Under the pieces are notes generated by a model. That model made no database searches. It saw only the letters and a program-made list of their open reading frames with translations, and was not told the origin of the DNA. The position numbers were made by a program, and so were the translations under genes. A stretch of DNA of 32,400 bases, taken from the IMG/VR virus record IMGVR_UViG_3300045988_046446. One strand, written 5' to 3'. Of this stretch, positions 1 to 28,485 are shown piece after piece; within the stretch, counting starts at the first letter, position 1, and the number at the start of each line of letters is the position of its first letter. The stretch is from a virus.

Positions 1-56
1 TAGCTGGTTCTTCTGCCTTAGCTGGTTCTTCTGCCTTAGCTGGTTCTTCTGCCTTT
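1..56. repeat. 18-bp tandem repeat (gctggttcttctgcctta), 3 units, coding for (PAKAEE)n on the minus strand
   Basis: Direct reading gives units at 3-20, 21-38 and 39-56. The same unit is present at 32346-32400. Confidence 0.95.
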
Positions 57-919: not shown

Positions 920-1070
920 AATTCTACTTTTTAATCGTTTATCTCCGTTTTAATGTCTCGGTGACCTTCCGCTAGGTGAGTAAACCTTGGTTTCTCCCTT
1001 TCAACGTTACAAATATACGGCTTTTATCAATAGGTTGTACATTCCGTTAACATCATTTAAGAATAAAAGT
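920..1070 (-). promoter_or_regulatory. early promoter-leader cassette, copy 6 (long leader)
   Basis: TATATTTG -7 box at 1010-1017 (minus strand). Upstream element GTTAACGGAATGTACAACC at 1032-1051, with a TTCTTAAATGATG extension to about 1070. The 34-nt register is the same as in the other copies. The leader is about 85 nt. Confidence 0.55.
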
Positions 1071-1073
1071 GCT

Positions 1074-1437
1074 CTGTCTCACTTAAAACGTTGAAAACCA
1101 GGCATTTAAAAAATGAGATTTCGGACTGTGCCACCCCTCGAAAATGCGCTGTCTCACTTAATGCGCTACAAACCAAGCCGTTACAACGGAAAAAGTTGAT
1201 TGTGCCAGGTGAGGCTGATGTTTTCCTATAACTTTATTTGGAATATATAAAATACTACTATACTACGAATATTTAGTAGAGGGGGTAAATTTCAATAATG
1301 CCCAAAATAAAGTGTTATACCATTTTCACTGTCTCACCTGGCACACCTCTATAAATAACTATAATACAGCAAGTTAAGTGAGACAAAGACTGTGCCACCT
1401 AAAAACCGTGCCTGGCACAGTGGCACAGTTTGAGACG
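1074..1437. repeat. noncoding motif array A: about 10 copies of CTGTGCCAC / CTGTCTCAC / CCTGGCACA words in both orientations around an AT-rich core
   Basis: ctgtctcac at 1074, 1149 and 1329. ctgtgccac at 1126 and 1390. tgtgccagg at 1201. cctggcaca at 1337 and 1411. gtggcacag at 1420. gtgagacaa at 1378. No ORF is present. Confidence 0.9.
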
Positions 1438-1438
1438 C

Positions 1439-1470
1439 AAAAAAGGGCACATTCCGAAGAACGCACCCTT
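1439..1470 (-). terminator. rho-independent terminator at the end of the late/lysis operon
   Basis: Minus strand reads AAGGGTGCGTTC-TTCG-GAATGTGCCCTT followed by TTTTTTGC. The stem is 12 bp including G-U pairs, with a UUCG loop. It lies 11 nt after the stop of 1481..2059. Confidence 0.7.
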
Positions 1471-11208: not shown

Positions 11209-11219
11209 AATCCAAATTA

Positions 11220-12827: not shown

Positions 12828-12831
12828 ATTG

Positions 12832-13851
12832 TTAAGGTTCTACTATTTCAAATTTGCATTTAAACGCGGCTACCCGTCCCGTCGCACCGCCTTGTATGTT
12901 CAGCGCGTTCGGGTTCTGTATCGTAACGCGTGCCCACTGGTTTGTAGCCAAAGGGAATACCCCGGCAACCTCGCCCGAACGTGAAAGCCAGTACAGCGCG
13001 TTTTGGTTATCGTCCGTTACTACTGCGTTTATCGTAACGTCGTAGGACAACACACGGTTGCCGCCCGAGAAGTTAACCAAGTAAGTAGGCACAATACGGT
13101 ATTGGCCAAAATACATCGTATCGTAGGCGCCTTTGCTGTTAAGCCATCGAAGCGTTACCCGTTTGCTGGGGTCGGGGCAATACGGGTATTTACGTTCAAA
13201 TCGTGCGTAGCCCCATACACTGGCGTCATTTTCGGTTCTAAATACAAGCGGAGGCAAGTTCCGGCCCGCGGAAAATGCCGTATTCGCCCAAATAAGTGAG
13301 CTTCCTGTGCCCCCTTCTCTGTACCGTAGTCTGCCGCCCGAGTTTGCGGTTTGCTGCCCGTATCGCAATGCGAAGTTAAACGGCGCACCCGTTAATGGGC
13401 TGTTAAGGAACGAAGCACAATTAAAGTCCAACTGATTAAACAGCCCATTACCGTAGTCGGATAGATTAATAGTGCTCGCGTCCCAAGCGTTACGCGCGTA
13501 TGCTGCCGGAGAGTGTATAACGCGCATAAAGATAGATTTCAGTGTACCCTCCACGTATTGTATTTGCACCATGTCTACGAAGTCAGTAAACCCCAAGCCT
13601 GCGTTGATGCTCTCCGTTATACTCGGTGTGGCTGCTGCCATCATTGACATATCCAATATAGCACCCTCGTATGGGGTAACTACGGCGGTTGCCTTGGTAG
13701 CCCCATTACGTGAAAAGATAAGGGCTATACTGGTAACCGCGCCCACCTGCTCCAAGCGTATAGGGCGGTAAATACCCGCGCCTATGCTGCCGATTACCGT
13801 ATAGCCAGCTTCTGCGGTAGTTACATTAGTTAATAGATTTCGTATAATCAT
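12832..13851 (-). CDS. virion tail-like protein (339 aa)
   Basis: ORF in the track. It has a 4-nt ATGA-type overlap with the upstream gene (13848..14288). Confidence 0.6.
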   Translation of the reverse strand: MIIRNLLTNVTTAEAGYTVIGSIGAGIYRPIRLEQVGAVTSIALIFSRNGATKATAVVTPYEGAILDMSMMAAATPSITESINAGLGFTDFVDMVQIQYVEGTLKSIFMRVIHSPAAYARNAWDASTINLSDYGNGLFNQLDFNCASFLNSPLTGAPFNFALRYGQQTANSGGRLRYREGGTGSSLIWANTAFSAGRNLPPLVFRTENDASVWGYARFERKYPYCPDPSKRVTLRWLNSKGAYDTMYFGQYRIVPTYLVNFSGGNRVLSYDVTINAVVTDDNQNALYWLSRSGEVAGVFPLATNQWARVTIQNPNALNIQGGATGRVAAFKCKFEIVEP

Positions 13852-14288
13852 TGCTTTTTAGTTAAAATTGTTAATATCTCTGCGCTGATAATACGGTTAA
13901 CTTCTACCGTTACGCGCTTGATAAGTTCGGGGGTTAATATCTTACTTGCTACGCCCCCCTCGTTGTATTCGTTAGGTACTTTGATACCGTCCCTTTTAAT
14001 CACATAGGCAATCGCGTAGGCGGCTTCTTCGGGTATGTCCGTGCCGGCGTTCGCGTTCTTGTCCTTAATCCATTGCTTGATAGCGGATATGGGCGGCATT
14101 GTGCCGGGTCTACGCCCGTCTTCCATCTGATAGATGTACGCTGGGGCTACAATACGAACGCCACCGGGATATTCCTCGACTTGTGTTTGCTTATCGAAGT
14201 TACCCGAGGCGTTCAGCTTCATAGCGTAGTAGTTGGCTACAATCTCATCACGAATCTTTTTAACCGCTTGTACTACTTCGCTGTTCAT
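13848..14288 (-). CDS. hypothetical structural-module protein (146 aa)
   Basis: ORF in the track, translationally coupled to the downstream gene. Confidence 0.6.
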   Translation of the reverse strand: MNSEVVQAVKKIRDEIVANYYAMKLNASGNFDKQTQVEEYPGGVRIVAPAYIYQMEDGRRPGTMPPISAIKQWIKDKNANAGTDIPEEAAYAIAYVIKRDGIKVPNEYNEGGVASKILTPELIKRVTVEVNRIISAEILTILTKKQ

Positions 14289-14291
14289 GAT

Positions 14292-14636
14292 TTACAAGTA
14301 TTTAAACCATGCGTACGGTTTACGGTTTTTTAGGTATTCGGTATCGTGCTCGTTGCCGTAGGCTTCCTTCTCGAAGCCCATTCTATCATATGGCTTATCA
14401 TTCGGGTCACATGGTTTCTTTTCAAAACTCCACGCAAAGTAACGTATCACCCATTCGATACCATACCAAACGTAAAAAGGCACATAAAGCATTTCACGCA
14501 TCTGTTTGGTGTGAATGCTTTCGTGTCTTATTGTCTTTTCACCTATATAGGCATTGCCGCGAACGAACAACACGCCAAAGAGGTTAATCGCTTTGAAGCC
14601 CTTAAAGGGGATAAACTTGTTTCTGATAATCTTCAT
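14292..14636 (-). CDS. small protein with an HExxH motif (114 aa)
   Basis: IRHESIHTKQ contains H-E-x-x-H, with a downstream FEKEAYGNEH. The N-terminus is hydrophobic. Confidence 0.55.
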   Translation of the reverse strand: MKIIRNKFIPFKGFKAINLFGVLFVRGNAYIGEKTIRHESIHTKQMREMLYVPFYVWYGIEWVIRYFAWSFEKKPCDPNDKPYDRMGFEKEAYGNEHDTEYLKNRKPYAWFKYL

Positions 14637-14715
14637 AGTTTCATGTGCCGTTCATTAGTTAACGACGCACAAAAGTACGTAGTAAATCGCTACGAAACAA
14701 ACCGCGTCAAGTCTG

Positions 14716-15117
14716 CTATCCGAATTTGTATACATCCAAAACGGCCTCCCAACCAGATTTAATGCTGTCGTACTGGTTCTGCACTTTCGACAAGCGAATA
14801 GAGCCAATCTCGTAGCCGCACACAAAGGCTGCCAACATATCCTGCAAAAGCTGGTCGGTGCGTATCAGTGTCGCAATCTCTACAGCATCATCGCGCATAT
14901 ACTCAGACGTACCCATACAACGAATTACGATTGTGTAGCCGTTGCTTCTCGGTACGTTCACGTCGTTATAAAAGCCCGTGGTTATATCCAGAGTGAAGAA
15001 GTCTACAGACAGACTGTTAGCCGCTACGTTCTGTACGGCTGTATCTCCGAATATGAGAGGCAGCCCTAAAGCTGCCGCACGTGTATTCGCTGTATTGTAA
15101 ATTGTCTCAAAGGTCAT
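14716..15117 (-). CDS. hypothetical structural-module protein (133 aa)
   Basis: ORF in the track, 3 nt from the upstream gene. Confidence 0.6.
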   Translation of the reverse strand: MTFETIYNTANTRAAALGLPLIFGDTAVQNVAANSLSVDFFTLDITTGFYNDVNVPRSNGYTIVIRCMGTSEYMRDDAVEIATLIRTDQLLQDMLAAFVCGYEIGSIRLSKVQNQYDSIKSGWEAVLDVYKFG

Positions 15118-15120
15118 ATG

Positions 15121-15735
15121 TTAACGGTTTTTAGATTGTTGTTTCTTTAATTCACGTTTCTCTTTCTCTATCTCGTCGTTACGTTTGGCGATTGCCAGCA
15201 TAGCATCCGAGTAGTTGACTTGCTTCGCTTCGTCAAAGCTACAGTGGAAAAGCTCGGCTGTTACCTGCACCAGCCCGAGAAGGTTCTTTGCCTGCTTGAT
15301 ATTCTCATCGCCGGTCAACGCGCTTTCACCGCTTTTGCCGTGCATGTTTTGGAAAATCACCTGCTCGAGGCCATCGGCTATTTCCAACTGTTTAACTATG
15401 AATTTGTCAAGCTTCACGGCATCGACGACGGTAACGGGTTCATAGTTATCGTCAGTCCATGCCTTGATACGCCCTAACGCGTCCTCGGCTCTTCGTGTTT
15501 CAAGGATAGCCCATAAACCAATTTCCTCGATGTCCTTAAGGCGGTACACTGCTTTGCCGTTACGGGTTGCTACCTGGGAAGGCTTAAGGTACTTAATCAT
15601 GTCTTTGAGCAAGCGTTCCTCATCGCGCGTCATACGTACCGTGCCATCGGCGGGCATGTTCGCGATACGGAGCATTGCCGCGCGATTACGGATATTAGCA
15701 ATTTTGAAAGATAGTCTAAAAAGTAAATTCTTCAT
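15121..15735 (-). CDS. hypothetical protein (204 aa) downstream of the terminase
   Basis: ORF in the track. Basic K/E-rich C-terminus. No motif recognised. Confidence 0.6.
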   Translation of the reverse strand: MKNLLFRLSFKIANIRNRAAMLRIANMPADGTVRMTRDEERLLKDMIKYLKPSQVATRNGKAVYRLKDIEEIGLWAILETRRAEDALGRIKAWTDDNYEPVTVVDAVKLDKFIVKQLEIADGLEQVIFQNMHGKSGESALTGDENIKQAKNLLGLVQVTAELFHCSFDEAKQVNYSDAMLAIAKRNDEIEKEKRELKKQQSKNR

Positions 15736-15821
15736 TTTAAAGCGTTTTAAGCGACTTTCTTTGTCGCGGTTAGTAGTTACCCACTATCTGGGGAGAAAAG
15801 CCCGTAGAGGGCAAGCAAATG

Positions 15822-16967
15822 CTACTTAGGGCGGTATTTACGTATTAGGTAATCTACGCCATAACGCAAAGCGTCGAGTGAGTGGTTCCAGGCATCTATA
15901 GGTTCGTTGGTGTACGTATCGGTCGCCTCGTCCTTTATCCATTTGTAGTTATCCAGTTCGTCCAGCATCTTAACGCTTCTTTTCGTTACGTGCAGTTTGA
16001 ACTGGGAGACCTGGGCTATGCCAGCCGAGATAGAGCCGCGCCCCTTCACACACGGTATTGCTTTGATACGTCTTTGCTGAAGTTCCACGATACTCTTTTG
16101 CTCTGCACTGTCACACACGGTAACTACGCGGTTAAGCCCCTGCCCGGTCAAGTAGTCCGCGATGGCGCTGTTAAGTAGACCCGTCTCGTAGCAGAGAAGG
16201 TCTACGTACAAGTCCCAGCCTTCAAAGCGTATATCGACAATCGCTGTAGGGTCGTTAACGAAACCGAAGTCAAGCCCGATACATCGCCCGGTGAACGTTT
16301 CGGGTAGCTCGTCGATAACTTCGTAGTTCGGATATACGTTGCCCTCTACACCGCCCGTCTCGCCCTCTCCGTAGACGCGCCACCAGTTGGCATCGTTCTT
16401 GTTCTTCTCGATAGCACCTACCTGCTCCTTGGTTAAGTACGGGTTATCCTTGTACGTTGAGTGGATGGTTACGTATCTGTCACCTACGAACTCGGTTTCC
16501 CCCCAAAACTTCCGTACCGGGTTGAAGTCGATAATAACCTTTTTACGTGTACGGATATCAAGCTGCCTAAAGATTTCCCTGGGTATGCCCTGCGCCTCGT
16601 TGACGAACAGAATATCACGTGCGGGGCCGTGCACCTTTGAAGCGTTATCGACGCCAAAGAACTCTATCATGCACCCGTTGGGGTATGTGTAACACCCCTC
16701 GGTCTTGTTGAACGAATTCTCATCCCATACGCCCTCGGCTGCCAGCATCTGTCTGAAGTCTCGCTGCATGCCTCGTTTCACCATCGGAAGTGTAGCGGCA
16801 ACGCACGAAATGATAAGGGGCTTTTCGGAGTTGGAGCAAAGGAGGTGCAACATCTGCAACGTTGCCCACGTCTTGCCGGAACGTGTGCCGCCCTTTGACG
16901 CGACACCACGTATTCGGGGGTCAACGAAAGCCGCCAATAGCTTTTCAAATGTGTATGTTACATTCAT
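15822..16967 (-). CDS. terL: terminase large subunit
   Basis: Walker A GGTRSGKTW and Walker B-like DILFVNEAQ. The C-terminal nuclease-like acidic residues are IGLDFGFVNDPTA, VCDSAEQ and LDALRY. Its start overlaps the stop of the upstream TerS-like ORF. Confidence 0.85.
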   Translation of the reverse strand: MNVTYTFEKLLAAFVDPRIRGVASKGGTRSGKTWATLQMLHLLCSNSEKPLIISCVAATLPMVKRGMQRDFRQMLAAEGVWDENSFNKTEGCYTYPNGCMIEFFGVDNASKVHGPARDILFVNEAQGIPREIFRQLDIRTRKKVIIDFNPVRKFWGETEFVGDRYVTIHSTYKDNPYLTKEQVGAIEKNKNDANWWRVYGEGETGGVEGNVYPNYEVIDELPETFTGRCIGLDFGFVNDPTAIVDIRFEGWDLYVDLLCYETGLLNSAIADYLTGQGLNRVVTVCDSAEQKSIVELQQRRIKAIPCVKGRGSISAGIAQVSQFKLHVTKRSVKMLDELDNYKWIKDEATDTYTNEPIDAWNHSLDALRYGVDYLIRKYRPK

Positions 16968-17590
16968 CAGATGCCCCCTAACTTTTGTAGGTTCTTAACG
17001 GCATCCTCGGAAAGCACATTGACCTGCATAGCCTTTGTGCCTGCCTCCTTGCCATTGCTTGTTACGTCCTTAAGGTCTCGCAGTCCTCGTAGCTTCGCCA
17101 TGTAGTTGGCATCGACCATCCCCGCAAGGGCCGCCTCGTCCATCTCGGTTGTTATAAGCTCCTTTATAAGTGTATAACCTAATAGAAGGTTCTCGGCATC
17201 GGGGTTCGTCTCGGAAGCCTTTTCCAGCTTCGCTATGTTCTTATTGAAGTCTTTTATAGACCAGCCTATGAAAAGGCAGAAACCGCCAACAGAGGGCGCG
17301 CGTTTCTTCTCTATGGGTACCTTCTGCCCTGCTGCCGCACCGCCCTTCAGTATCTCGTATTGTATATAGGGGTTCTTCTCGCAAAAGCTCATGTACTCCG
17401 CTACGTAGTTAATACACTCGTCGATGCTGTTAAGCGTCGCACCGTTCACGCCTCGTGTCTGCACTACTTCATAAAGTTGTGTGCATGCCTTTAGCTCGTC
17501 CTTTGGTTTCGGGGGTGTCCCGGTTGCCTGCCCTTTCTTGATTTCCTTTTTCGTATCGGGGGCGGCTTCTTTCTTTGTTCTTCCTGCCAT
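16967..17590 (-). CDS. terS: terminase small subunit (start re-set to Met42 of the tracked ORF 16967..17713)
   Basis: Basic N-terminus MAGRTKKEAAPDTKK. The PSVGGFCLFIGWSIKDFNKNI segment resembles the HTH of Terminase_2-type small subunits. A canonical promoter lies inside the longer ORF version. Confidence 0.6.
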   Translation of the reverse strand: MAGRTKKEAAPDTKKEIKKGQATGTPPKPKDELKACTQLYEVVQTRGVNGATLNSIDECINYVAEYMSFCEKNPYIQYEILKGGAAAGQKVPIEKKRAPSVGGFCLFIGWSIKDFNKNIAKLEKASETNPDAENLLLGYTLIKELITTEMDEAALAGMVDANYMAKLRGLRDLKDVTSNGKEAGTKAMQVNVLSEDAVKNLQKLGGI

Positions 17591-17675
17591 AATCGTTAAT
17601 TGGTTTTGTGCGTGCATGGGATATTGGATAATGTCCATGTGTACGCGGTCTATTACTCCCTTAAGGGTGTGGGGG

Positions 17676-17707
17676 CAAAAGTACATAACTTCCTGCCTCA
17701 AACCAAA
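17676..17707 (-). promoter_or_regulatory. canonical Bacteroidota-type promoter for the late operon
   Basis: Minus strand reads TTTG (17704-17707), a 20-nt spacer, then TACTTTTG (17676-17683). This matches the TTTG-N19-21-TAnnTTTG consensus. Confidence 0.5.
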
Positions 17708-17751
17708 CCGCAATCAGTCGTGAAAATCAAAAACATTTTACAAAGTAGGGG

Positions 17752-18148
17752 GCGGCACAGATAACGCGCTATCACACAACGAGTTACAAGCGTTTTTGCC
17801 TACTGTGCCAGGCACGTTTCTGGTGGCACACCTCGGGTGGCACAGATAACGCGCTATGTATCAGACCGTTAGAGCGACTGTGCCACTGTGCCAGGCAAAA
17901 AGCACTTCTCTAACACTTATTTTATAAATAGTATATATTACTGCTATCTCTACATTGCAATTACCATATATTTTTCCAAATAAAGTGTTATACCTATTTT
18001 ATACTATTTAGTGGCACAGTATAGATAACTATATATAGTTCAGTGAGTTATCTGTGCCACTTGCTGTGCCACCCTACATTTTTCCTGGCACAGTAACTGT
18101 TAACGGTATTGTAGGTCAGCGAGTTAAGTGAGACAAGGACTGTGACAC
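17752..18148. repeat. noncoding motif array B: about 12 copies of GTGGCACAG / CTGTGCCAC / CTGTGCCAGG words around an AT-rich core
   Basis: Copies start at 17752, 17803, 17823, 17837, 17878, 17886, 18011, 18052, 18064, 18084, 18128 and 18140. A 21-nt direct repeat G(C/T)GGCACAGATAACGCGCTAT occurs at 17752 and 17837. No ORF is present. Confidence 0.9.
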
Positions 18149-18274
18149 GCCTATATTTTTTACTTGCCATACTTGATTATCAGCACGTTAGCACGGTGCG
18201 CATTTTGATAAGCATTTTTCAATTAACAATCTAAACACTTTTTAAGAATTGAGCTTTCGTAAAATATAATGACA

Positions 18275-18314
18275 AAGGGCGATTTCTGACTATTTGTAAG
18301 CCGAAACCGCCCTT
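18275..18314 (-). terminator. possible terminator at the end of the early/middle region
   Basis: aagggcgatttc (18275-18286) pairs with gaaaccgccctt (18303-18314): 12 bp with 1 mismatch. On the minus strand it is followed by TTTGTCATTATATTTT. It lies 46 nt after the stop of 18360..18782. Confidence 0.4.
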
Positions 18315-18359
18315 TTGCTATCATTTTTTAAAGGCATATGCTATTCGTAAGGGGCACTA

Positions 18360-18782
18360 TCATTTAGTAACTTTATTGCTTTCCCACCTATCAAATAGCC
18401 AACCATCAACGCTCCAATACCAAATCATTATAGACCCATCGGGGAAAAGAGTTGCCCGGCTTATCCTTCCTTGCCTGTCGATGGTGTATCGCCTCGGCAC
18501 GTCTTGCTCGTTCCGCTTCTCCTCATCGCGCCTTGCCTCATCACGGAACAAGTATTGCCGCTTATTAACTTCCTGCTTGTACGTGAAACCCTGCCCCTCT
18601 ATATAGGCCGCCAGCTTATCTATCCACTTCCGGCATTCACGGGCTGATACGCTACCGCGCCCCCATCTATCCTTTTTAACTCCCTTCTCGAAGCCGTACC
18701 GCCTTATGAACTCCCAAATGATGAACGTGTGTACATTGAGGCATACCGCTATATCCATAAAACTAACTTTCTTCATGTACAA
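18360..18782 (-). CDS. putative helix-turn-helix DNA-binding protein (140 aa)
   Basis: N-terminal VSFMDIAVCLNVHTFIIWEFIRRYGF has a helix-turn-helix appearance, followed by a basic R/K/E middle region. It is the last gene before array B. Confidence 0.35.
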   Translation of the reverse strand: MYMKKVSFMDIAVCLNVHTFIIWEFIRRYGFEKGVKKDRWGRGSVSARECRKWIDKLAAYIEGQGFTYKQEVNKRQYLFRDEARRDEEKRNEQDVPRRYTIDRQGRISRATLFPDGSIMIWYWSVDGWLFDRWESNKVTK

Positions 18783-18787
18783 TGTCC

Positions 18788-19045
18788 TTAAGTCTTATAT
18801 ACTTGTAACGTGCCCCCGCTCGAGGCTTCTTCATGAATACATATCCACCTACGCTCATTAAATCCTCTGGCGTGTGCCACACTCTCATGTACTTCTACTA
18901 TAATCACGTCTTTTAGGCTCGTGTAGCCCACTACCCTAATACCGATGAGGTATTCCACTTCGTCAACCCTTGCGGCTGTCCTATCGCCCCATTTAAGCTT
19001 ATGGGGTAGCTTTGGTTCTTTAGTCATTTTCGTTAAACACTCCAT
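18788..19045 (-). CDS. small protein, member of the 'VVGY...GW' paralog family (85 aa)
   Basis: YLIGIRVVGYTSLKDVIIVEV is alignable to 19614..19886 and 23378..23653. It has a TAATG overlap with the upstream micro-ORF. Confidence 0.6.
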   Translation of the reverse strand: MECLTKMTKEPKLPHKLKWGDRTAARVDEVEYLIGIRVVGYTSLKDVIIVEVHESVAHARGFNERRWICIHEEASSGGTLQVYKT

Positions 19046-19146
19046 TACTCGTCGTACTCCCCATCTATATTACGGGCTGCAAATTTAGCCACAAACCACA
19101 AACCAGTTACCAAACCCGCACCGATTGCTATTCCGAATAAACACAT
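19045..19146 (-). CDS. 33-aa single-pass membrane micro-protein
   Basis: Own translation: MCLFGIAIGAGLVTGLWFVAKFAARNIDGEYDE*. It has TAATG overlaps with both neighbours. It falls below the ORF-track cutoff. Confidence 0.4.
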   Translation of the reverse strand: MCLFGIAIGAGLVTGLWFVAKFAARNIDGEYDE

Positions 19147-19607
19147 TAATGCCTCCATACCTTTTCCCCCCATACTTTTTCCTCCCATATTTTTGGCGAT
19201 ACATTTTCTAAACCATCTCCCATGCTTACAAGCTTCATACCTCCGTGCTTACCGCGGATATAAGCGGCTTGTACATTACCGTGCTCGTCCGCCGAGAATT
19301 GAATACCCGTCACGCCTTCGTGCTCCTTGATAAGCTCGCCTATCGTCTTGTGCTTCGGGGCTTCCTCTACCGGCATCCCGGTCGGCTCCTCCAGCATCCC
19401 GGCGTTGCGGTATTCATAAGAAAGGAATTCATCCTCGGACACGCCTATATCGTTAGCGCCCCAGGACTGCCAGCCGTTCACGTGGTCGACACCTAATATC
19501 ACGCCGTGCATATCGTTCCAACCGACTACCACACCGGCATACTCACCGTTCTTGTTGAATACCGCACGCCCTGCGTACAGCAATGCAAAATCTTTGTTTC
19601 TAATCAT
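19146..19607 (-). CDS. hypothetical protein (153 aa) with an N-terminal paralog-family-like domain
   Basis: YAGVVVGWNDMHGVILGVDHVNGW resembles the VVGY...GW family. The C-terminus carries a 5-aa repeat, KIWEE/KVWGE/KVWRH. Confidence 0.6.
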   Translation of the reverse strand: MIRNKDFALLYAGRAVFNKNGEYAGVVVGWNDMHGVILGVDHVNGWQSWGANDIGVSEDEFLSYEYRNAGMLEEPTGMPVEEAPKHKTIGELIKEHEGVTGIQFSADEHGNVQAAYIRGKHGGMKLVSMGDGLENVSPKIWEEKVWGEKVWRH

Positions 19608-19613
19608 AATCTT

Positions 19614-19886
19614 CTAATCTATTAAATCATTAATACCGGCATACCAATATCTTTCGCACTTTTTGACTACAACATCTTGCGGGTCTAAAAATTTCCCATA
19701 CCATCCTTCGATTTTGGAAGCTTCTACTATAAGTGGGTATGTATATTCATTGTCCCTATACCCCACTACTTCTACTTTCTCGCCGAAGATGCTAACCAAT
19801 CGTCCTACATACTTTTCCATCGGGTGGGCTTCTTTCTGTCTAAACTGTGAGTACATCTCACTAACTGCTTTTGAATACTTTTCCAT
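19614..19886 (-). CDS. small protein, 'VVGY...GW' paralog family (90 aa)
   Basis: VGRLVSIFGEKVEVVGY...IEGW...RYWYAGINDLI aligns with 23378..23653. Preceded by cassette copy 2. Confidence 0.65.
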   Translation of the reverse strand: MEKYSKAVSEMYSQFRQKEAHPMEKYVGRLVSIFGEKVEVVGYRDNEYTYPLIVEASKIEGWYGKFLDPQDVVVKKCERYWYAGINDLID

Positions 19887-19968
19887 AATCTTTTGTTTTT
19901 AAATCGTTGATACAAGTATAACGCTTTTTCCGTTACATTGGTTCTTTCGTTAACATCATTTAAGTATT
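19887..19968 (-). promoter_or_regulatory. early promoter-leader cassette, copy 2
   Basis: Minus strand reads ...CTTAAATGATGTTAACGAAAGAACCAATGTAACGGAAAAAGCGTTATACTTGTATCAACGATTTAAAAACAAAAGATTATG. The -7 box is at 19913-19920 and the upstream element at 19938-19954. Confidence 0.6.
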
Positions 19969-20016
19969 AAACTATCCCTCAACGATAGCCCGTGCTCTAA
20001 TTGCTGTAGCTTGAAA

Positions 20017-20094
20017 TTACGTTGTATGCTGTACTACGGTGCAGCCTACCAATATTAGTAGTAGGACTGCGATAACTACTATTAGCTTTTTCAT
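20017..20094 (-). CDS. 25-aa lipoprotein-like micro-ORF
   Basis: Own translation: MKKLIVVIAVLLLILVGCTVVQHTT*. It has a signal peptide with an LVGC lipobox and an ATGA overlap with the SNF2 helicase stop. Confidence 0.35.
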   Translation of the reverse strand: MKKLIVVIAVLLLILVGCTVVQHTT

Positions 20095-23377: not shown

Positions 23378-23653
23378 TTATCTTAAAATTCCTACAATAT
23401 TATCTAAATTCACAAGCCAGTACGTTTCTGCAGCCTTAAATATTATGTCCGCGGTTCCTAAAGCAGTGGCCCTCCACCCTAAGCCCTTTCCGTCTATAAT
23501 AACCTGGTATGTGTTACTCGAGACATACCCCACGACTTCCACAATTGAAAACCTCTCGAATACTGGTTCGGTTACGCATTGTTCTTGCTCTTCTCCCGGC
23601 AAAGCACCCAATCTAACTAATACTCTCTTTCCTACTAATTCTTTCTGTTCCAT
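23378..23653 (-). CDS. small protein, 'VVGY...GW' paralog family (91 aa)
   Basis: VGKRVLVR...FSIVEVVGYVSSNTYQVIIDGKGLGW...ETYWLVNLDNIV aligns with 19614..19886. Confidence 0.65.
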   Translation of the reverse strand: MEQKELVGKRVLVRLGALPGEEQEQCVTEPVFERFSIVEVVGYVSSNTYQVIIDGKGLGWRATALGTADIIFKAAETYWLVNLDNIVGILR

Positions 23654-23678: not shown

Positions 23679-23873
23679 TCAATTGGTTTTTAACATATTG
23701 TAGGCGGCTTGTTTTGCATTTAAATGCTTCTCCTCATTTTCATCGTCATCGCACCAGTCCCATATCTCGGCGTCAGAGCAATGCACAGAATTATCTAAGC
23801 CTCTTAATGTATATTGGCCGTAACCGGCTATTTCAATAGTGATAATTTCGCTGTTAAATTCAAACGTTTTCAT
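23679..23873 (-). CDS. hypothetical acidic early protein (64 aa)
   Basis: ORF in the track, preceded by cassette copy 5. The N-terminus MKTFEFN resembles MKVTTFEF of the junction-spanning gene. Confidence 0.6.
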   Translation of the reverse strand: MKTFEFNSEIITIEIAGYGQYTLRGLDNSVHCSDAEIWDWCDDDENEEKHLNAKQAAYNMLKTN

Positions 23874-23978
23874 AATCTTTTGTTTTTAAATTGTTATTAT
23901 TTCCTTTTGACATTACAAATATAGGGTTTATTCCAATACGTTGTATATTTCATTAACACTGTTTAAGAATAAACCCTA
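23874..23978 (-). promoter_or_regulatory. early promoter-leader cassette, copy 5, embedded in a 12-bp inverted repeat
   Basis: -7 box TATATTTG at 23916-23923. Upstream element GTTAATGAAATATACAACGT at 23938-23957. The inverted repeat is tagggtttattc (23922-23933) and gaataaacccta (23967-23978). Confidence 0.55.
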
Positions 23979-24003
23979 TTTTAGTCAATCTGTTAACAAG
24001 TCG

Positions 24004-26454
24004 TTAACTTTCAGACTTGGTATCGACGTCTGCGTTAACAATTCTTTTGAAACCTCTTTGTTGTCCGTATGACTTCACCCTCTGTCTGCTACGCTCCCAC
24101 CCGGGTAACTTGCTCAGTATGTCGTTAATCTCGGAAGCGTCTCGGGCCTTAATCTTTCCTACCTCGAAGCCTAAAGCCTCAACCAGCACGCCCGTAGCGC
24201 TAACGAAGTCCATCTGTACGCATTCCTCTTTTGTTATCTCGTCCTCGTCGTAATTCTCGTAATACATGCGACGCTCCAAAGGAAACATTTTCTCCCAGTT
24301 GGCGGGCACGTACATGTCGCAATACTTTGCAACGGCTTCGGTACGTGGGTCTGTCTCGAAGTGTTCCTCTCTGCCTTGTTCTGCGATTACCTCCGCTTCT
24401 GCGGACAACAACGTAGACACACCGCGGAAATACATGTTAACGGCTTCCGCCCATAACTGGTCTACGTATGCCGGGAAATCGGCCTCAAAGATAAGATGGG
24501 TGTTTTCGTTGGCACGTACACGTACGGGTAAAAATCTACGCCCTCCGGTTGCGTCCTTCAAAAACTCGTCCTTGTTGGTTGTCCCAAAGAAAACGCATTG
24601 ACGCGGAAAGTTCTTTGTTACACGCCCGTACGCTGGTCTAAAGCTGTCCTCGGTCTTGGTGATGAAATTCTTAACCATCTCCACCTCTGAACGTCTCATT
24701 GCTGACAACTCGGCAATCTCCAATATCCAGTTACCCTGCAATTGTTCAAACGCTGTCTTGCCGTCCATCGTTGACAAGCTATCGGAGAACCACTGTTTAC
24801 CCAGCATCTTAAGGAATGTACTTTTTCCTGCCCCTTGGTCTGACTGTAGAACCAGCATACTATCGAACTTGCAACCCTTTTGAAAGATACGTTTAACCGC
24901 ACCTACCATCATGATACGAAAAGCCTCGCGAGTGTATATGTTATCCTCCGCACCGAGTATATCGATTAGGGCGGTATCTACGCGCTCCGTACCGTCCCAT
25001 TCCAAATTAGTTAGGTAGTTCTGCACCGGGTGGAAAGAATTAATCTCGGCAACCAGTGAGATAGCATCATCCACCTTAAACGAGCTACTGATGCCGTAAA
25101 CGTCTTCAATATGCTTTCTAACCCCTGCAAAGTCTACGTCTTGAAAGTCCGTACTACTGTCTTTCGGTCTCCATATAGGGGTACGGGTAACTACCCTGCG
25201 TTCTTTAAATAGGTCTCGTGCTATCAGCCCTTTTAAATTCGGGTCGTACTTAAGTATTAAACCCAGGTTCTTTGCGCTCGACAAGTAATTACCTTTTTTA
25301 TCTACTTCGAGTTCCGCCATCACCTTTTCAAATGATACCTCGGGCAAATTGTCGTGAACCTCTTCGGGTTCAATGGTTTCTTCGAAGTCATTCATAACCT
25401 CGGTAGTCTTTGCAAGCAAACGGGACGCACGCATTTCCGCTACCTTCGCGTCCTTGTTTACAAGTTCGTTCATCGCGTCTGTTGACTTCGTGCGGTCTTG
25501 TCCCTTATCCATCTTGCCGAACTTGTGTACACGTACCAAGTCGTAGGCATTAAACACGTGGTTACCTTGGATGGGGTCGTTGTTATGGAATGAGTATGCA
25601 AACATATCGTTGAAAGTAAGCATACCGCCCGAAGTAGAACCGCCGCTATACGTCCATCTGTCCGGCTGGTCGGTCGGTTCGTAAACGTCCGGCAAGTATT
25701 CCGCGATAACTTCTGAAATGGTGTACGCCCGGCAAAAGTCGCCTACCGTACCTTCCTTTAAAGTAGGGTCTTGCTGCTCCTTAACAAAGGTACGTACTTC
25801 GCCTTTCTCATCCTTGTGGTATGCCCATTCCGTCGTGTCGTGCCAATCTTCGTACATGTTAAGGTATTCGTTCACGTCCAAAGGGGTTTCACATAACTGT
25901 GAATAGTCGGTGTAATCATAGTCTACGTCTCGGGACACGGAGGGGAAAAACATACATCGCTCGGGCTGAAAGGTCGTTCGGTCGTACAAGTCTATCCCGG
26001 TAATCTCGGCAACCTTCCTGGCAATAGCTTCGTACTGCTCACCGTCCACGGGTTCGGACAACGGAATAATAACGCGATAACGCAACACACCTGCTTTCGG
26101 GTTATGCTTATGTGTCCCGTGTATGATGCAGGCACAATTGATAGCTGCGAAAAAACGCTCCGGGAAGTCAGCCTCTCCGTAGTCGATATCAAGCGCCAAT
26201 AGCGAACGCTCGCCTACGTTGTTTTTGTTTCGCCTGCTACCGAATAATTCACCGCCCATGAATGCGCCTACGTCTTTAATCGCTCCTTGTTCGGCTTTGC
26301 TCGCTGCCATGAACTCGCGGTATGTTTCTTCCGTTACCTTCGCACTGGTGAACTTCTTTGCAAGTTCTTCCCATGTGTAGGTACGGTTCTTCCAACTTAC
26401 CGACTTCGCGTTAGTAGCGGTCGCAACCTTAAAAGTCATTTTTTTTAATTCCAT
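24004..26454 (-). CDS. DNA primase / VirE-family (P-loop) helicase fusion
   Basis: The C-terminal region QSDQGAGKSTFLKMLG...WILEIAEL...FRPAYGR...VFFGTTN..FLKDATGGRRFLPVRV is a close match to the virulence-associated protein E family pattern. The N-terminal half has LALDIDYGE and GTHKH motifs compatible with a primase-polymerase domain. Confidence 0.85.
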   Translation of the reverse strand: MELKKMTFKVATATNAKSVSWKNRTYTWEELAKKFTSAKVTEETYREFMAASKAEQGAIKDVGAFMGGELFGSRRNKNNVGERSLLALDIDYGEADFPERFFAAINCACIIHGTHKHNPKAGVLRYRVIIPLSEPVDGEQYEAIARKVAEITGIDLYDRTTFQPERCMFFPSVSRDVDYDYTDYSQLCETPLDVNEYLNMYEDWHDTTEWAYHKDEKGEVRTFVKEQQDPTLKEGTVGDFCRAYTISEVIAEYLPDVYEPTDQPDRWTYSGGSTSGGMLTFNDMFAYSFHNNDPIQGNHVFNAYDLVRVHKFGKMDKGQDRTKSTDAMNELVNKDAKVAEMRASRLLAKTTEVMNDFEETIEPEEVHDNLPEVSFEKVMAELEVDKKGNYLSSAKNLGLILKYDPNLKGLIARDLFKERRVVTRTPIWRPKDSSTDFQDVDFAGVRKHIEDVYGISSSFKVDDAISLVAEINSFHPVQNYLTNLEWDGTERVDTALIDILGAEDNIYTREAFRIMMVGAVKRIFQKGCKFDSMLVLQSDQGAGKSTFLKMLGKQWFSDSLSTMDGKTAFEQLQGNWILEIAELSAMRRSEVEMVKNFITKTEDSFRPAYGRVTKNFPRQCVFFGTTNKDEFLKDATGGRRFLPVRVRANENTHLIFEADFPAYVDQLWAEAVNMYFRGVSTLLSAEAEVIAEQGREEHFETDPRTEAVAKYCDMYVPANWEKMFPLERRMYYENYDEDEITKEECVQMDFVSATGVLVEALGFEVGKIKARDASEINDILSKLPGWERSRQRVKSYGQQRGFKRIVNADVDTKSES

Positions 26455-26457
26455 TTC

Positions 26458-28485
26458 CTAATCTTTTTTATAATATTCCGTTATGTAACCGGCCGCTCGC
26501 AATGGGATGTTAGCCGCCCAACTTGGCGCTTCACACATTGCATCTATCATCGCGTTAAGCGTTAATTCTTCGTTCCCGTCTTTAGGTATTTCCGCGGCTA
26601 TCTCATCATGAACGTGTAGAACAATGTTATAACCCATATCGAAAACCTTGAAAATAGCGTTTGCCAACAAGTCCCTGCTTATGGCCTGCACAATGTTCTC
26701 CGTTAGCTTGCCTCCGTAGGTGTGTAACTTCGCCCATTTGCCCGTGGTTTGCTCTTGTCCCATGTAGGAAATATCCTGCACATCAAACTCTCCGTTCGGG
26801 CCCGATACTGTTCTACTACTTAAACGTGCGGAAGGGTAAAAAAGTTTTCGCCCCGATGGTAACTCTATAGTCATTACTCCACCTTCGTATCTGAATACTA
26901 TTGAGGAAAACTCGTCAATAACATACGTTTGCGGCCTGCGTGTTCCAATACACGTTTTTGCAGCATTCTCTAAAGACTTCCACAAAGATACTACTTTTTT
27001 GTTAGCTTCTCTCCATTTTAACAGTATTTGAGGCTTTTCTTCTTCCGTTAACGCTTTCTTGGTGTCCATTGTAGTAAGGGCGTTAACCCCACCGCCGTAA
27101 CCTAATGCAAGTTCGGCAACCTTTCCGCGCTGTCTTAGCTCGTCCCCCTTATGGACGGGCACACCGAACATCTTAGAAGCGGAAGCACAATATATATCGG
27201 CTTTAGGGTCTTTGAACAATTCTAACCGCCATTGTTCATTGGCTACCCACGCGATTACACGTGCCTCAATCGCGGAGAAGTCCGCCACGGAGAAGGTATA
27301 ACCTTCGGGGGCGATAAACGCGGTACGTATAAGCTGGGATAGAATGTGTGTAGGTTTAGTGTACATTAGCTCCATTAGTGATAAATCATGCAACTTTGCC
27401 AGGTCTCGCGCTTCGTCCAGCTCCTCGATATGGTTTTGCGGTAGGTTCTGCAACTGAACCAAGCGCCCAGCCCATCGTCCGGTACGGTTCGCACCGTAAT
27501 ACCTAAACAAACCTCTAATACGGTCTCCTCGTCCTGCACTTGCAAGGATGGCGGTGTACTTTGCGTTGGATGTCTTACCGATTTCCCGGCGTAGGTCGAT
27601 AACGTCTAATACTGCTTGCTTGTCTGCTTCCGGGACGTTCTTAAGGCTCGCAATCTCTTTTATAACATCCTCTATCACTCCCTTGGTTAGCGACGAAACA
27701 ACTACTCCAGTACGTTTCTTGATGAACTCTTTTAGTTGGGGCATGGACTTTAGAGAACCGATGCCGTACTTTTGTTCCGCTATCTCGGCTAACTTCTGTT
27801 TATACTCCTCGTCCATATCCCGGGCGGCCGTTGCTAACTGTAAATCGGCACGTATTCCGTAGTCGTTTATTCGCTGGTCTGCTGCGTATATGCGCTGCTC
27901 CAGTTCTGGGAAGTCAAACCGAGATAATTTTCCGAATATTTCCTTTTCAGAAAGCACGTCATAGCGGAGATATTCTATAAATTCGTTCCATGCCTCGGGG
28001 TCATGCTCTGGAAGGTTACGGGTACGCCCGCCGTTCGTTTTGGTAGGTTTACAAGGAACGGAGAAATATCGGATAAGGTTTTTTCCCGTGCCTAATTTCT
28101 TATCCTGCAAATCGAGAATCTGCGAAACCGCGTCAAGCGATGGCGGCATACCGCAATAGAGCGCCATGTTAGCCGTACAGAAAAATCGCATAGGACTTAT
28201 ATCAAAGCCGTATTCCTTCAAACAGACGCGCTCAAACGTAGCATTGTGGGCCACTATAACTACTTCCGGGTCATTGGCTACAGAGGTGAACAACTCGTTA
28301 AACTCTGTACGCCCGTTGGGGGTTGTAAGGTCTATTATTGATACCTCCGTGTCGGTGTCCCACATATAACCGCACAACAATATTTCAAATGCCGGGTCTT
28401 CGCAATACTTGTAGTTGCCAGCGCTTTTAATATCTGTTTCGGAATAGGTTTCAAAGTCTATAAATAAATGTTTCATAATATACAT
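26458..28485 (-). CDS. family A DNA polymerase with a 3'-5' exonuclease domain
   Basis: Exo I FIDFETYS, Exo II HNATFE and Exo III YLRYDV. Pol motif A DFSAIEARV, motif B RQRGKVAELALGYGGG and motif C HVHDEI. Confidence 0.9.
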   Translation of the reverse strand: MYIMKHLFIDFETYSETDIKSAGNYKYCEDPAFEILLCGYMWDTDTEVSIIDLTTPNGRTEFNELFTSVANDPEVVIVAHNATFERVCLKEYGFDISPMRFFCTANMALYCGMPPSLDAVSQILDLQDKKLGTGKNLIRYFSVPCKPTKTNGGRTRNLPEHDPEAWNEFIEYLRYDVLSEKEIFGKLSRFDFPELEQRIYAADQRINDYGIRADLQLATAARDMDEEYKQKLAEIAEQKYGIGSLKSMPQLKEFIKKRTGVVVSSLTKGVIEDVIKEIASLKNVPEADKQAVLDVIDLRREIGKTSNAKYTAILASAGRGDRIRGLFRYYGANRTGRWAGRLVQLQNLPQNHIEELDEARDLAKLHDLSLMELMYTKPTHILSQLIRTAFIAPEGYTFSVADFSAIEARVIAWVANEQWRLELFKDPKADIYCASASKMFGVPVHKGDELRQRGKVAELALGYGGGVNALTTMDTKKALTEEEKPQILLKWREANKKVVSLWKSLENAAKTCIGTRRPQTYVIDEFSSIVFRYEGGVMTIELPSGRKLFYPSARLSSRTVSGPNGEFDVQDISYMGQEQTTGKWAKLHTYGGKLTENIVQAISRDLLANAIFKVFDMGYNIVLHVHDEIAAEIPKDGNEELTLNAMIDAMCEAPSWAANIPLRAAGYITEYYKKD

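What the first reader, a model, noticed from the sequence alone, without database searches (positions are those of the whole stretch)
17752..18148. Dense two-orientation array of GTGGCACAG-type words in the 650-bp gap upstream of the late (terminase) promoter
This is the largest noncoding stretch in an otherwise tightly packed genome, and it has no ORF. It carries about 12 copies of one word family. Exact CTGTGCCAC/GTGGCACAG copies start at 17837, 17878, 18011, 18052 and 18064. CTGTGCCAGG/CCTGGCACAG copies start at 17803, 17886 and 18084. Near copies start at 17752, 17823, 18128 and 18140. A given 9-mer is expected well under once in 32 kb counting both strands. The longer unit G(C/T)GGCACAGATAACGCGCTAT is a 21-nt direct repeat (17752, 17837). 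It recurs inverted at 18047-18060 and with a 5-nt insertion at 18011-18029. The copies surround an AT-rich core (about 17905-18010). The array sits between the early-region terminator hairpin and a canonical TTTG-N20-TACTTTTG promoter in front of terS. Plausible roles are a cos/pac recognition region, a replication origin with iterons and an unwinding element, or a multi-site operator/enhancer for the early-to-late switch. None of these can be decided from the sequence alone.
Basis: partly seen in the sequence, partly recalled or inferred. Interest (0 to 1): 0.8.

Follow-up and report, generated by a model that had tools for sequence, protein, structure and literature searches.

The report
Duplicated iteron origin in Bacteroides phage
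The word array is most likely one of two copies of this gut Bacteroides phage's DNA replication origin, in which short binding sites for the phage's own primase-helicase flank an easily melted AT-rich stretch; this kind of origin is known, but had not been recognised in this common phage family.

Summary
TGGCACAG occurs 13 times in the window against 0.57 expected. Eight copies lie in 17803-18093 and four in a second gap at 1126-1428. The two gaps are paralogous modules. Each has iterons in both orientations around a ~115-bp AT-rich core, and each sits between a terminator and a Bacteroides-type promoter. They lie about half a genome apart.

All 10 isolate relatives and dozens of IMG/VR contigs keep the same architecture, but the word differs by lineage: TGCACAG, TACACAG, TGACCAG, TGGAACAC, TGTGACA and others.

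The word class covaries with only one part of the proteome, the last ~70 residues of the 816-aa VapE-like protein (24004..26454). Mantel r is 0.63-0.65, with 0 of 10,000-20,000 permutations as high. TerS (r 0.05) and the neighbouring 140-aa protein (r -0.11) do not covary.

That protein is an AEP PrimPol fused to an SF3 helicase homologous to SaPI1 Rep1 (PDB 7PDS, E 5.5e-76), with a predicted C-terminal winged helix. SaPI Reps use that domain to bind iterons flanking an AT-rich region.

Best reading: twin Rep-dependent replication origins (confidence ~0.75). It is a new variant of a known kind, because the origin is duplicated and lies away from rep. No binding or replication data exist.

The parts
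17752..18148 (.). Array B (the finding): complete origin-like module with 12 iteron-type words around an AT-rich core
   Evidence: conserved in close relatives
17752..17894 (.). Array B, left iteron cluster. Sites at 17752(+), 17803(-), 17823(+), 17837(+), 17878(-) and 17886(-). Two of them extend to GGCACAGATAACGCGCTAT.
   Evidence: (D4)
17897..18010 (.). Array B AT-rich core (78% AT), the putative DNA unwinding element. It contains ACTGCTATCTCTACATTGCAAT (17940-17961) and the constant box TTTTCCAAATAAAGTGTTATACC (17972-17994).
   Evidence: least stable 100 bp of the window; core elements conserved across iteron classes
18011..18148 (.). Array B, right iteron cluster. Sites at 18011(+), 18052(-), 18064(-), 18085(+), 18128(+, GTGAGACAA) and 18140(-, GTGTCACAG). 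The 18011 and 18052 sites bracket a 32-nt AT palindrome.
   Evidence: (I15, I18)
17877..18020 (.). Innermost inverted iteron pair, ACTGTGCCACT / AGTGGCACAGT, with 122 nt between the arms, bracketing the array B core
   Evidence: I12
1074..1428 (.). Array A, the paralogous second module. Sites at 1074(-), 1126(-), 1149(-), 1200(-) | core | 1329(-), 1338(+), 1378(+), 1390(-), 1412(+), 1420(+).
1214..1328 (.). Array A AT-rich core (72% AT) with the constant box CCCAAAATAAAGTGTTATACC (1301-1321). It is bracketed by the perfect 13-nt inverted pair 1201-1213 / 1333-1345, with 119 nt between the arms.
   Evidence: third least stable 100 bp; I2
24004..26454 (-). 816-aa initiator: N-terminal AEP PrimPol fold, SF3 helicase (VapE-like, homologous to SaPI1 Rep1) and C-terminal winged helix. 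Proposed iteron-binding protein.
24007..24252 (-). Coding region of the C-terminal winged-helix domain (about residues 735-816), the only proteome segment that covaries with the words
18274..18315 (-). Terminator-like hairpin ending the early/replication operon, upstream of array B in the direction of transcription
   Evidence: I10; sequence
17676..17710 (-). Bacteroides-type late promoter TTTG-N20-TACTTTTG in front of terS, downstream of array B
   Evidence: sequence; conserved in relatives
1436..1470 (-). Terminator hairpin plus U-run ending the late/lysis operon, upstream of array A in the direction of transcription
   Evidence: sequence
1005..1045 (-). Early promoter region (-7 element TATATTTG, reverse complement of 1008-1015) downstream of array A
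   Evidence: sequence; the same element is seen in relatives

Best explanation
The array is one of two paralogous replication origins of a virulent, headful-packaging Bacteroides siphophage of about 33 kb.

Structure. Each origin is a ~350-400-bp module in a non-transcribed slot between a terminator and the next promoter. It carries 10-12 short iterons: (G/C)TGGCACAG, plus the variant GTGAGACAG. They occur in both orientations on either side of a ~115-bp AT-rich core, and a perfect inverted iteron pair brackets the core.

Proposed mechanism. The phage's 816-aa initiator (24004..26454) combines a PrimPol domain, a Rep1-like SF3 helicase and a C-terminal winged helix.
- It recognises the iterons through the winged helix (recognition helix and beta-hairpin wing).
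- It assembles as hexamers on both sides of the core and melts it without a separate loader.
- It primes with its own AEP domain and hands over to the phage family-A DNA polymerase (26458..28485).

What is shown computationally: the site architecture, homology of the initiator to an experimentally characterised iteron-binding Rep, the predicted winged-helix fold, and specific covariation between that domain and the words at both modules.

What is inferred: binding itself, melting, priming, and that both copies fire. The second copy might instead be an auxiliary site like P4 crr, or a Rep-bound fork barrier like SPP1 oriR.
For: 1. Architecture.
- Iterons lie on both sides of the least stable duplex of the window.
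- Perfect inverted pairs are spaced 122 nt apart in array B and 119 nt in array A.
- This is the SaPI ori rule: 6-12 iterons, a central AT-rich region, and at least two iterons on each side pointing in opposite directions (PMC9371898).

2. Initiator.
- Residues 394-740 match SaPI1 Rep1 (7PDS) at E 5.5e-76.
- An AF2 model of residues 588-816 (pLDDT 88 overall, 95-98 in the C-terminal domain) ends in helix / recognition helix / beta-hairpin.
- Its only significant PDB fold hits are the six 7PDS chains, over 226-240 columns, at E 1e-12 to 6e-9.
- The N-terminal 385 aa fold like AEP primase-polymerases (6ZP9, E 1.2e-5).

3. Divergence pattern. The protein is mostly 72-94% identical, in 40-residue blocks, between the window and its relatives. 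Identity dips to ~60% at residues 1-40 and 321-400, and falls to only 32-38% in the last ~95 residues. This parallels the complete divergence of the arrays, for which blastn finds no match.

4. Concerted site change. Among phages ~95% identical elsewhere, every site in both modules switches together. BU183P2, L031 and L061 have TGACCAG where others have TGCACAG. Meanwhile the spacers stay nearly invariant, and A copies group with A copies and B with B.

5. Covariation.
- Array B, 29 genomes: of the 26 proteins scored, only this one correlates with word-column divergence (r 0.39; all others 0.22 or less). The top 10 of 320 30-aa segments are all in it, the best being residues 751-780 (r 0.73; partial r 0.70 after controlling for spacer divergence).
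- Mantel for the C-terminal domain is 0.63 (0/20,000 permutations), against 0.04 for residues 1-690.
- Array A, 42 genomes: r 0.56 against 0.20 or less for the others, the top 14 of 382 segments are all in it, and Mantel is 0.65 (0/10,000).
- The result is robust to removing the TGACCAG clade (r 0.64, 0/10,000).
- Genes lying between the domain and the arrays do not correlate, so linkage does not explain it.

6. Wider classes. More distant lineages with other C-terminal domains have other words in the same architecture: TGGAACAC, TGTGACA, TGTCGGAACAC.

7. No DnaA boxes lie in the arrays, which fits a self-loading initiator.
Against: - There is no experimental datum: no binding, no melting, no marker-frequency or 2D-gel mapping.
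- Unlike SaPIs, the sites are not next to rep. Array B is 5.9 kb downstream and array A about 7-9 kb upstream. The gap right after rep is AT-rich but has no iterons.
- GC skew is uninformative, because all genes are on one strand.
- Both copies sit immediately upstream of promoters, so a transcriptional role for the bound protein is equally compatible with the covariation.
- Covariation across related genomes is not fully independent of phylogeny, although ranking against the other scored proteins controls for much of that.
- Site orientation next to the constant box differs between the window lineage and the BU-type lineage. This has not been explained.
Confidence: 0.75

Rival explanations
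1. The arrays are multi-site operators or enhancers. A phage DNA-binding protein, possibly the same initiator, occupies them to repress or activate the adjacent early (array A) and late (array B) promoters. The early-to-late switch would be set at these two boundaries, and replication would start elsewhere.
For: Both modules lie 60-460 bp upstream of Bacteroides-type promoters, and exactly at the two operon boundaries. Plasmid Rep proteins commonly autoregulate through their iterons (established knowledge). The covariation shows who binds, not what binding does.
Against: The central ~115-bp AT-rich, minimally stable core bracketed by inverted sites is an origin hallmark and has no obvious role in an operator. 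The covarying domain belongs to a primase-helicase, not to a transcription factor. No small regulator covaries: the p140, p153 and small variable proteins were all tested. The sites do not overlap the -33/-7 elements.
Confidence: 0.12
2. The array is a packaging recognition region: TerS-binding pac sites, or a cosB-like site, placed upstream of terS as in lambda.
For: Array B lies directly upstream of terS. Lambda cosB has an array of small-terminase (gpNu1) sites in mixed orientation beside the small-terminase gene (established knowledge).
Against: A near-identical module lies half a genome away, next to no packaging gene. TerS divergence does not track the words (r 0.05). Among the relatives, EMB2 was typed by PhageTerm as headful and both EMB1 and EMB2 as circularly permuted (PMC9584325). 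IMG/VR contig ends are scattered. TerS is 77-78% identical between lineages whose words are entirely different.
Confidence: 0.05
3. The sites are bound by the initiator, but only one module is the origin. The other is an auxiliary cis element (like P4 crr) or a Rep-bound fork barrier that triggers the switch from theta replication to concatemer synthesis (like SPP1 oriR).
For: SPP1 has two similarly organised origins, and oriR is proposed to stall forks through bound gp38 (PMC6316719). P4 needs both ori and crr, which carry the same alpha-protein iterons (own knowledge). The phage encodes recombination and fork-processing genes: a DUF2800 nuclease, VRR-NUC and an SNF2 helicase. A and B copies evolve as distinct orthologous lineages with copy-specific core elements.
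Against: Both modules keep the complete architecture (two iteron flanks, AT core, constant box) in every genome examined, and both covary equally with the winged helix. This is a refinement of the best explanation rather than a true alternative.
Confidence: 0.2

Closest known systems
SaPI/PICI origins bound by Rep self-loading initiator-helicases (SaPI1 Rep1, PDB 7PDS; SaPI5 PriRep5)
   Same: The initiator is a true sequence and fold homologue (E 5.5e-76; Foldseek E 1e-12, including the C-terminal domain). There are 6-12 short iterons on both sides of a central AT-rich region, with opposed orientation. Iteron specificity pairs with the C-terminal winged helix. The primase is fused to the helicase, as in PriRep5.
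   Different: The host is a virulent Bacteroides siphophage, not a satellite of Gram-positive cocci. The iterons are 8-9 bp rather than 5-6 bp. The origin is not adjacent to rep. There are two paralogous copies about half a genome apart.
Satellite phage P4 ori and crr with the alpha protein (primase + SF3 helicase + winged-helix origin-binding domain, PDB 1KA8)
   Same: One polypeptide combines primase, SF3 helicase and a C-terminal winged helix (PMC2777425). Two separate cis regions carry the same short iterons in both orientations (own knowledge).
   Different: The P4 primase is DnaG-like, whereas here it has an AEP fold. P4 ori and crr differ in structure and are 4.5 kb apart; here the two modules are full paralogues about 16.7 kb apart. 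No sequence homology to alpha was tested.
Bacillus phage SPP1 oriL and oriR
   Same: It is a virulent, headful-packaging siphophage with two origins of similar organisation (repeats plus an AT-rich DUE), both bound by one phage initiator. One origin lies in an intergenic segment bracketed by transcription signals (PMC6316719).
   Different: The SPP1 initiator gp38 works with a separate loader (gp39) and a DnaB-type helicase (gp40), and its repeats are direct. Here there is a single self-loading Rep-type protein and the sites are of mixed orientation.
Lambda cosB (gpNu1 R-sites) and pac sites near terS
   Same: An array of short protein-binding sites in mixed orientation directly upstream of the small-terminase gene.
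   Different: The module is duplicated away from terS, does not covary with TerS, and the relatives have circularly permuted genomes, one of them typed as headful-packaging.
Iteron plasmids (RepA/pi-type) and lambda ori (O protein)
   Same: Initiator-specific repeated sites lie next to an AT-rich unwinding element, and specificity classes behave like incompatibility groups.
   Different: Those use 17-22-bp direct repeats on one side, DnaA boxes and host DnaB loading. Here the sites are 8-9 bp in both orientations on both sides, there are no DnaA boxes, and the phage supplies its own SF3 helicase.

Membership tests
Rep/PriRep-type (SaPI-like) iteron origin | Initiator is an SF3 helicase homologous to SaPI Rep | tested here: met
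   phmmer against PDB: 7PDS_A, E 5.5e-76, query residues 394-740. Foldseek: 7PDS chains, E 1e-12 to 6e-9. Pfam VapE-like domain, E 2.6e-80.
Rep/PriRep-type (SaPI-like) iteron origin | C-terminal winged-helix DNA-binding domain on the initiator | tested here: met
   The AF2 model has pLDDT 95-98 in the C-terminal domain, with helix 166-173, helix 183-195 and a beta-hairpin at 199-217. It aligns with Rep1 over its whole length. This is a prediction only.
Rep/PriRep-type (SaPI-like) iteron origin | 6-12 short iterons split by a central AT-rich region, with at least 2 on each side in opposite orientation | tested here: met
   Array B has 6 + 6 sites and array A has 4 + 6. Inverted pairs bracket cores of 78% and 72% AT.
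Rep/PriRep-type (SaPI-like) iteron origin | Iteron sequence is specific to the cognate initiator's C-terminal domain | tested here: met
   Covariation is confined to the C-terminal domain. Mantel r is 0.63 (0/20,000) for array B and 0.65 (0/10,000) for array A, against 0.04 for the rest of the protein at array B and 0.22 or less for all other proteins. This is statistical, not biochemical.
Rep/PriRep-type (SaPI-like) iteron origin | Origin lies immediately downstream of rep, in a single copy | tested here: not met
   The gap after rep (23874-24003) has no iterons. The modules are 5.9 kb downstream and about 7-9 kb upstream of rep, and there are two of them.
Rep/PriRep-type (SaPI-like) iteron origin | Initiator binds and melts the origin, and the module supports replication | not testable with these tools
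   Needs EMSA or footprinting, KMnO4 probing, plasmid replication assays or marker-frequency analysis.
P4 ori/crr system | Primase, SF3 helicase and winged helix in one polypeptide | tested here: met
   AEP fold at the N-terminus, SF3 helicase and winged helix. The primase type differs from P4's DnaG-like domain (PMC2777425).
P4 ori/crr system | Two cis regions sharing the same iterons, both required | tested here: inconclusive
   Two regions sharing iterons are present. Whether both are required cannot be tested here.
SPP1-type dual origin (oriL/oriR) | Two similarly organised origins (repeats plus DUE) in one virulent phage genome | tested here: met
   description of SPP1.
SPP1-type dual origin (oriL/oriR) | gp38-type origin-binding protein with a separate loader and a DnaB-type helicase | tested here: not met
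   The replication module consists of PrimPol-SF3 Rep, family-A polymerase, DUF2815 SSB, DUF2800 nuclease and an SNF2 helicase. No DnaB or loader is annotated in the window or its relatives.
Terminase recognition site (cosB/pac) | Sites are specific to TerS and unique in the genome, at the packaging start | tested here: not met
   There are two copies per genome. TerS does not covary (r 0.05). Relatives EMB1 and EMB2 are circularly permuted, and EMB2 was typed as headful.
Classical plasmid/lambda iteron origin | 17-22-bp direct repeats plus DnaA boxes, with host helicase loading | tested here: not met
   Words are 8-9 bp and occur in both orientations. No DnaA box lies in either array.

The most novel reading that the evidence does not exclude
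The twin modules may be more than redundant origins. They sit exactly at the two operon boundaries, each just upstream of the early or late promoter and about 180 degrees apart. Initiator occupancy could therefore couple replication to the early/late transcription programme. Alternatively, one copy could act as a Rep-bound fork trap that switches theta replication to concatemer synthesis.

In addition, at least 9 iteron/winged-helix specificity classes have arisen among gut phages that are otherwise ~95% identical. This suggests ongoing selection for private replication specificity, for example to escape co-infecting relatives or satellites that hijack the initiator.
Probability: 0.2. Interest if true: 0.65.

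Novelty: new variant of a known kind. Interest (0 to 1): 0.5.

Why it matters
No paper in the searched library describes iteron replication origins in Bacteroides phages. The isolate records of this phage group that were examined annotate nothing in the two gaps.

This family is common in the human gut: HKP09-like phages were detected in 9% of individuals (PMC12691588).

If the reading is right, it has several uses:
- It names the origin(s) and the initiator, which helps in engineering these phages or building Bacteroides shuttle replicons.
- It explains the two large non-coding gaps that every member keeps.
- It supplies a natural series of matched winged-helix wing variants and iteron variants from which a recognition code can be read and tested.
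- It extends the SaPI-type self-loading Rep mechanism from Gram-positive satellites to virulent phages of Bacteroidota.

Tried and rejected
- blastn of the gap against 50,697 phage records found no match, although the flanks match at 73-80%. Comparison therefore had to go through synteny.
- The small hypervariable protein just downstream of rep (23679..23873; 'FaeA-like' in EMB phages) was rejected as the binder. The BU183P2 copy is 100% identical to that of BU2-1, which has different words.
- The 153-aa protein 19146..19607 looked promising in the 10-genome set: r 0.75, with a Q/R/T position tracking three word classes. It collapsed with 29 genomes (r -0.10).
- The p140 protein (18360..18782), p72 and TerS show no covariation. 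p140 and p72 also have no Pfam, PHROG or NCBIfam hit, while TerS has only a sub-threshold Pfam GP3_package match.
- GC skew is monotonic and uninformative.
- Rfam and tRNA scans found nothing in the window.
- No DnaA boxes lie in the arrays.
- A sigma-54 reading of TGGCAC was considered from the sequence and dropped: there is no TTGC at the required spacing, and the sites occur in both orientations.
- IMG/VR contig ends are scattered, so they give no information on termini.
- The AT-rich gap right after rep, where SaPI origins lie, holds a promoter-like module and no iterons.

Full report
**Context.** All real genes of the window are on the minus strand. The window is a Bacteroides siphophage of about 33 kb, related at roughly 80% nucleotide identity to B. 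uniformis phages BU1-1, EMB1/2, BU730P1, BU183P1/2 and C2_18_80S2P. It has 95-98% relatives among IMG/VR contigs of 32-34 kb. Read along the coding strand, the gene order is:
- array A, then the early/replication genes: DUF2800 nuclease, DUF2815 SSB, a metallophosphatase, family-A polymerase, the 816-aa VapE-like protein, VRR-NUC, SNF2 helicase and small proteins;
- a terminator, then array B, the late promoter, terS, terL, the structural genes and the lysis genes;
- a terminator, and back to array A.

**The observation.**
- TGGCACAG occurs 13 times against 0.57 expected. Eight copies lie in 17803-18093, four in 1126-1428 and one elsewhere.
- CTGTGCCA is the commonest 8-mer of the window.
- A second word variant, GTGAGACA(G/A), occurs four times in array A and once in array B.
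- The core 17911-18011 is the least stable 100-bp duplex of the window, about 3.9 sd below the mean. The core of array A ranks third.

**Two paralogous modules.** Arrays A and B share more than words. Both have the box CC(C)AAA(A)TAAAGTGTTATACC inside the core and the block GTTAAGTGAGACAA-GACTGTG(C/A)CAC at the right edge. Both have a perfect inverted iteron pair bracketing the core, with 122 nt between the arms in B and 119 nt in A. Both lie between a terminator hairpin and a Bacteroides TAnnTTTG promoter. Their centres are about 16.7 kb apart, roughly half the genome.

**Conservation and concerted change.**
- The six closest relatives keep every core word in place.
- All ten isolate relatives have the same two gaps. 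In each genome the enriched words occur almost only in those gaps, but the word is different: TGCACAG(AT/TA) in most and TGACCAGAT in BU183P2.
- Module alignments show nearly invariant spacers and AT cores. A copies group with A copies and B with B. All five or six site positions change together in both modules.
- This pattern is what co-evolution with one sequence-specific trans-acting protein would produce. Gene conversion between copies would not produce it.

**Which protein.** Early candidates failed; see the section on what was tried and rejected. The 816-aa protein stood out for four reasons.
1. Its residues 394-740 match SaPI1 Rep1 (7PDS) at E 5.5e-76. SaPI Reps are self-loading initiator-helicases. 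Their C-terminal winged helix binds 6-12 iterons arranged on both sides of an AT-rich region, with opposed orientation (PMC9371898).
2. Against its relatives, most 40-residue blocks of the protein are 72-94% identical, with dips to ~60% at residues 1-40 and 321-400. The last ~95 residues are only 32-38% identical, and that tail is also the most variable part among the relatives.
3. A confident AF2 model of residues 588-816 ends in a helix, a recognition helix and a beta-hairpin. It matches only Rep1 in the PDB, over its full length.
4. The N-terminal 385 residues fold like AEP primase-polymerases. The protein is therefore a PrimPol + SF3 helicase + winged-helix fusion, the same functional layout as P4 alpha, pRN1 ORF904 and SaPI5 PriRep5.

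**Covariation test.** For 29 BU-type genomes with array B, I compared divergence in the iteron columns of the aligned modules with divergence in the 32 BU1-1 proteins queried (26 had enough pairs to score), and in 320 overlapping 30-residue segments.
- Only the Rep-like protein correlates (r 0.39; all others 0.22 or less; TerS 0.05; p140 -0.11).
- The ten best segments are all in it. The best is residues 751-780 (r 0.73; partial r 0.70 after removing spacer divergence).
- Mantel r for residues 741-807 is 0.63, with 0 of 20,000 permutations as high. For residues 1-690 it is 0.04.

The test was repeated independently on array A in 42 genomes.
- r is 0.56 against 0.20 or less for the others.
- The 14 best of 382 segments are all in the same protein.
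- Mantel r is 0.65, 0 of 10,000.

Removing the TGACCAG clade leaves r at 0.64, 0 of 10,000. Genes that lie physically between the domain and the arrays do not correlate, so linkage is not the cause.

The classes can be read by eye:

| Wing motif / lineage | Iteron word |
|---|---|
| AANGKTV | CTGCACAG |
| SADAKSV | TACACAG |
| AAGRRAV | TGACCAG / GCCCAG |
| SAGRKAVT | TGGCCAG |
| window type, ERSRQRVKSYGQQRG | TGGCACAG |
| L020 | TGGAACAC |
| L056 / L062 | TGTGACA |
| L066 | TGTCGGAACAC |

All of these have the same flanks-plus-core architecture.

**Interpretation.** The array is best explained as a Rep-type replication origin, present twice. The steps of the mechanism are inferred from the SaPI Rep model, not shown here:
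- recognition of the iterons by the winged helix;
- hexamer assembly on both flanks;
- melting of the AT core;
- self-priming by the AEP domain;
- extension by the phage polymerase.

The modules occupy the only two sizeable non-transcribed slots of a genome transcribed in one direction. This would protect initiator complexes from RNA polymerase, and SPP1 oriR is similarly bracketed by transcription signals.

Why there are two copies is open. They may be redundant origins, an ori/crr-like pair, or an SPP1-oriR-like fork barrier.

A transcriptional role for the bound initiator at the adjacent promoters cannot be excluded. A packaging role is unlikely, for three reasons: the module is duplicated, TerS does not covary, and the relatives EMB1 and EMB2 are circularly permuted, with EMB2 typed as headful.

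**Novelty.** The kind of origin is known. What differs is the host group (virulent Bacteroidota phages), iterons of 8-9 bp with a variable 5' half and a more constant CAG(A/T)(T/A)A 3' half, the location away from rep, and the duplication. No paper in the searched library links Bacteroides phages with iterons or origins, and the isolate records examined leave the gaps unannotated.

**Limits.** Everything here is computational. Covariation among related genomes is not free of phylogenetic structure, although ranking against all other proteins and segments, the partial correlation and the replicate on the second module all address this. Site orientation next to the constant box differs between the window lineage and the BU-type lineage, and this remains unexplained.

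Noticed in passing
window 1005-1075, 19900-19990 and 23905-23985 (minus strand): Three copies of a promoter-like module share ...TTCTTAAA..GTTAAC..ACAAC..TATATTTG, with a Bacteroides -7 TAnnTTTG element. The copy at 19868-19976 is 92-95% identical to distant Phocaeicola phages whose flanking genes do not match (H48-H54). This suggests a strongly constrained or horizontally exchanged regulatory cassette.
   Followed up: partly
window 17972-17994 and 1301-1321; the same box in L001-L010, L020 and L056: A constant box inside the AT core, TTYCCAAA(A)TAA(A/T)GT(G/T)TTA(T/C)(A/C)CC, is kept in both arrays and across lineages with different iterons. It cannot be the specificity site of the initiator; it may be a host-factor site or a priming start.
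   Followed up: partly
window 17940-17961; also L020, L056 and L062 gap B: The core element (A/C)TTGCTATCTCTACAT(T/A)GCAAT, a small inverted repeat, is conserved in array B of four lineages with different iteron classes. It is absent from array A and from BU-type phages.
   Followed up: no
window 23872-23972: This is the second least stable 100-bp duplex of the window. It lies right after the rep stop codon, where SaPI origins sit, but it has no iterons, only the promoter-like module and a 30-nt imperfect inverted repeat.
   Followed up: yes
window 20017-20094 (minus strand): An unlisted 25-aa lipoprotein-like ORF (MKKLIVVIAVLLLILVGC...). It corresponds by position to the ~49-aa 'Cor / lipoprotein attachment site' gene of relatives, just downstream of the SNF2 helicase gene.
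   Followed up: no
window 1-56: An 18-nt tandem repeat (TAGCTGGTTCTTCTGCCT, three copies) at the very start of the window. It probably lies within a coding region that runs off the window edge.
   Followed up: no
window 23679-23873 and 23378-23653 (minus strand): Two small genes downstream of rep have no detectable (23679) or only ~33% (23378) similarity to the positional counterparts in the ten isolate relatives. This slot is a hypervariable cassette; the EMB phages carry a 'FaeA-like' protein there. It does not covary with the iterons.
   Followed up: partly
L060, L045 and L069 gap B (IMG/VR relatives): Some relatives carry extra short tandem repeats in the terS-upstream gap, outside the origin module. 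For example, 17 copies of a unit containing AATACCGGGA occur in L060.
   Followed up: no
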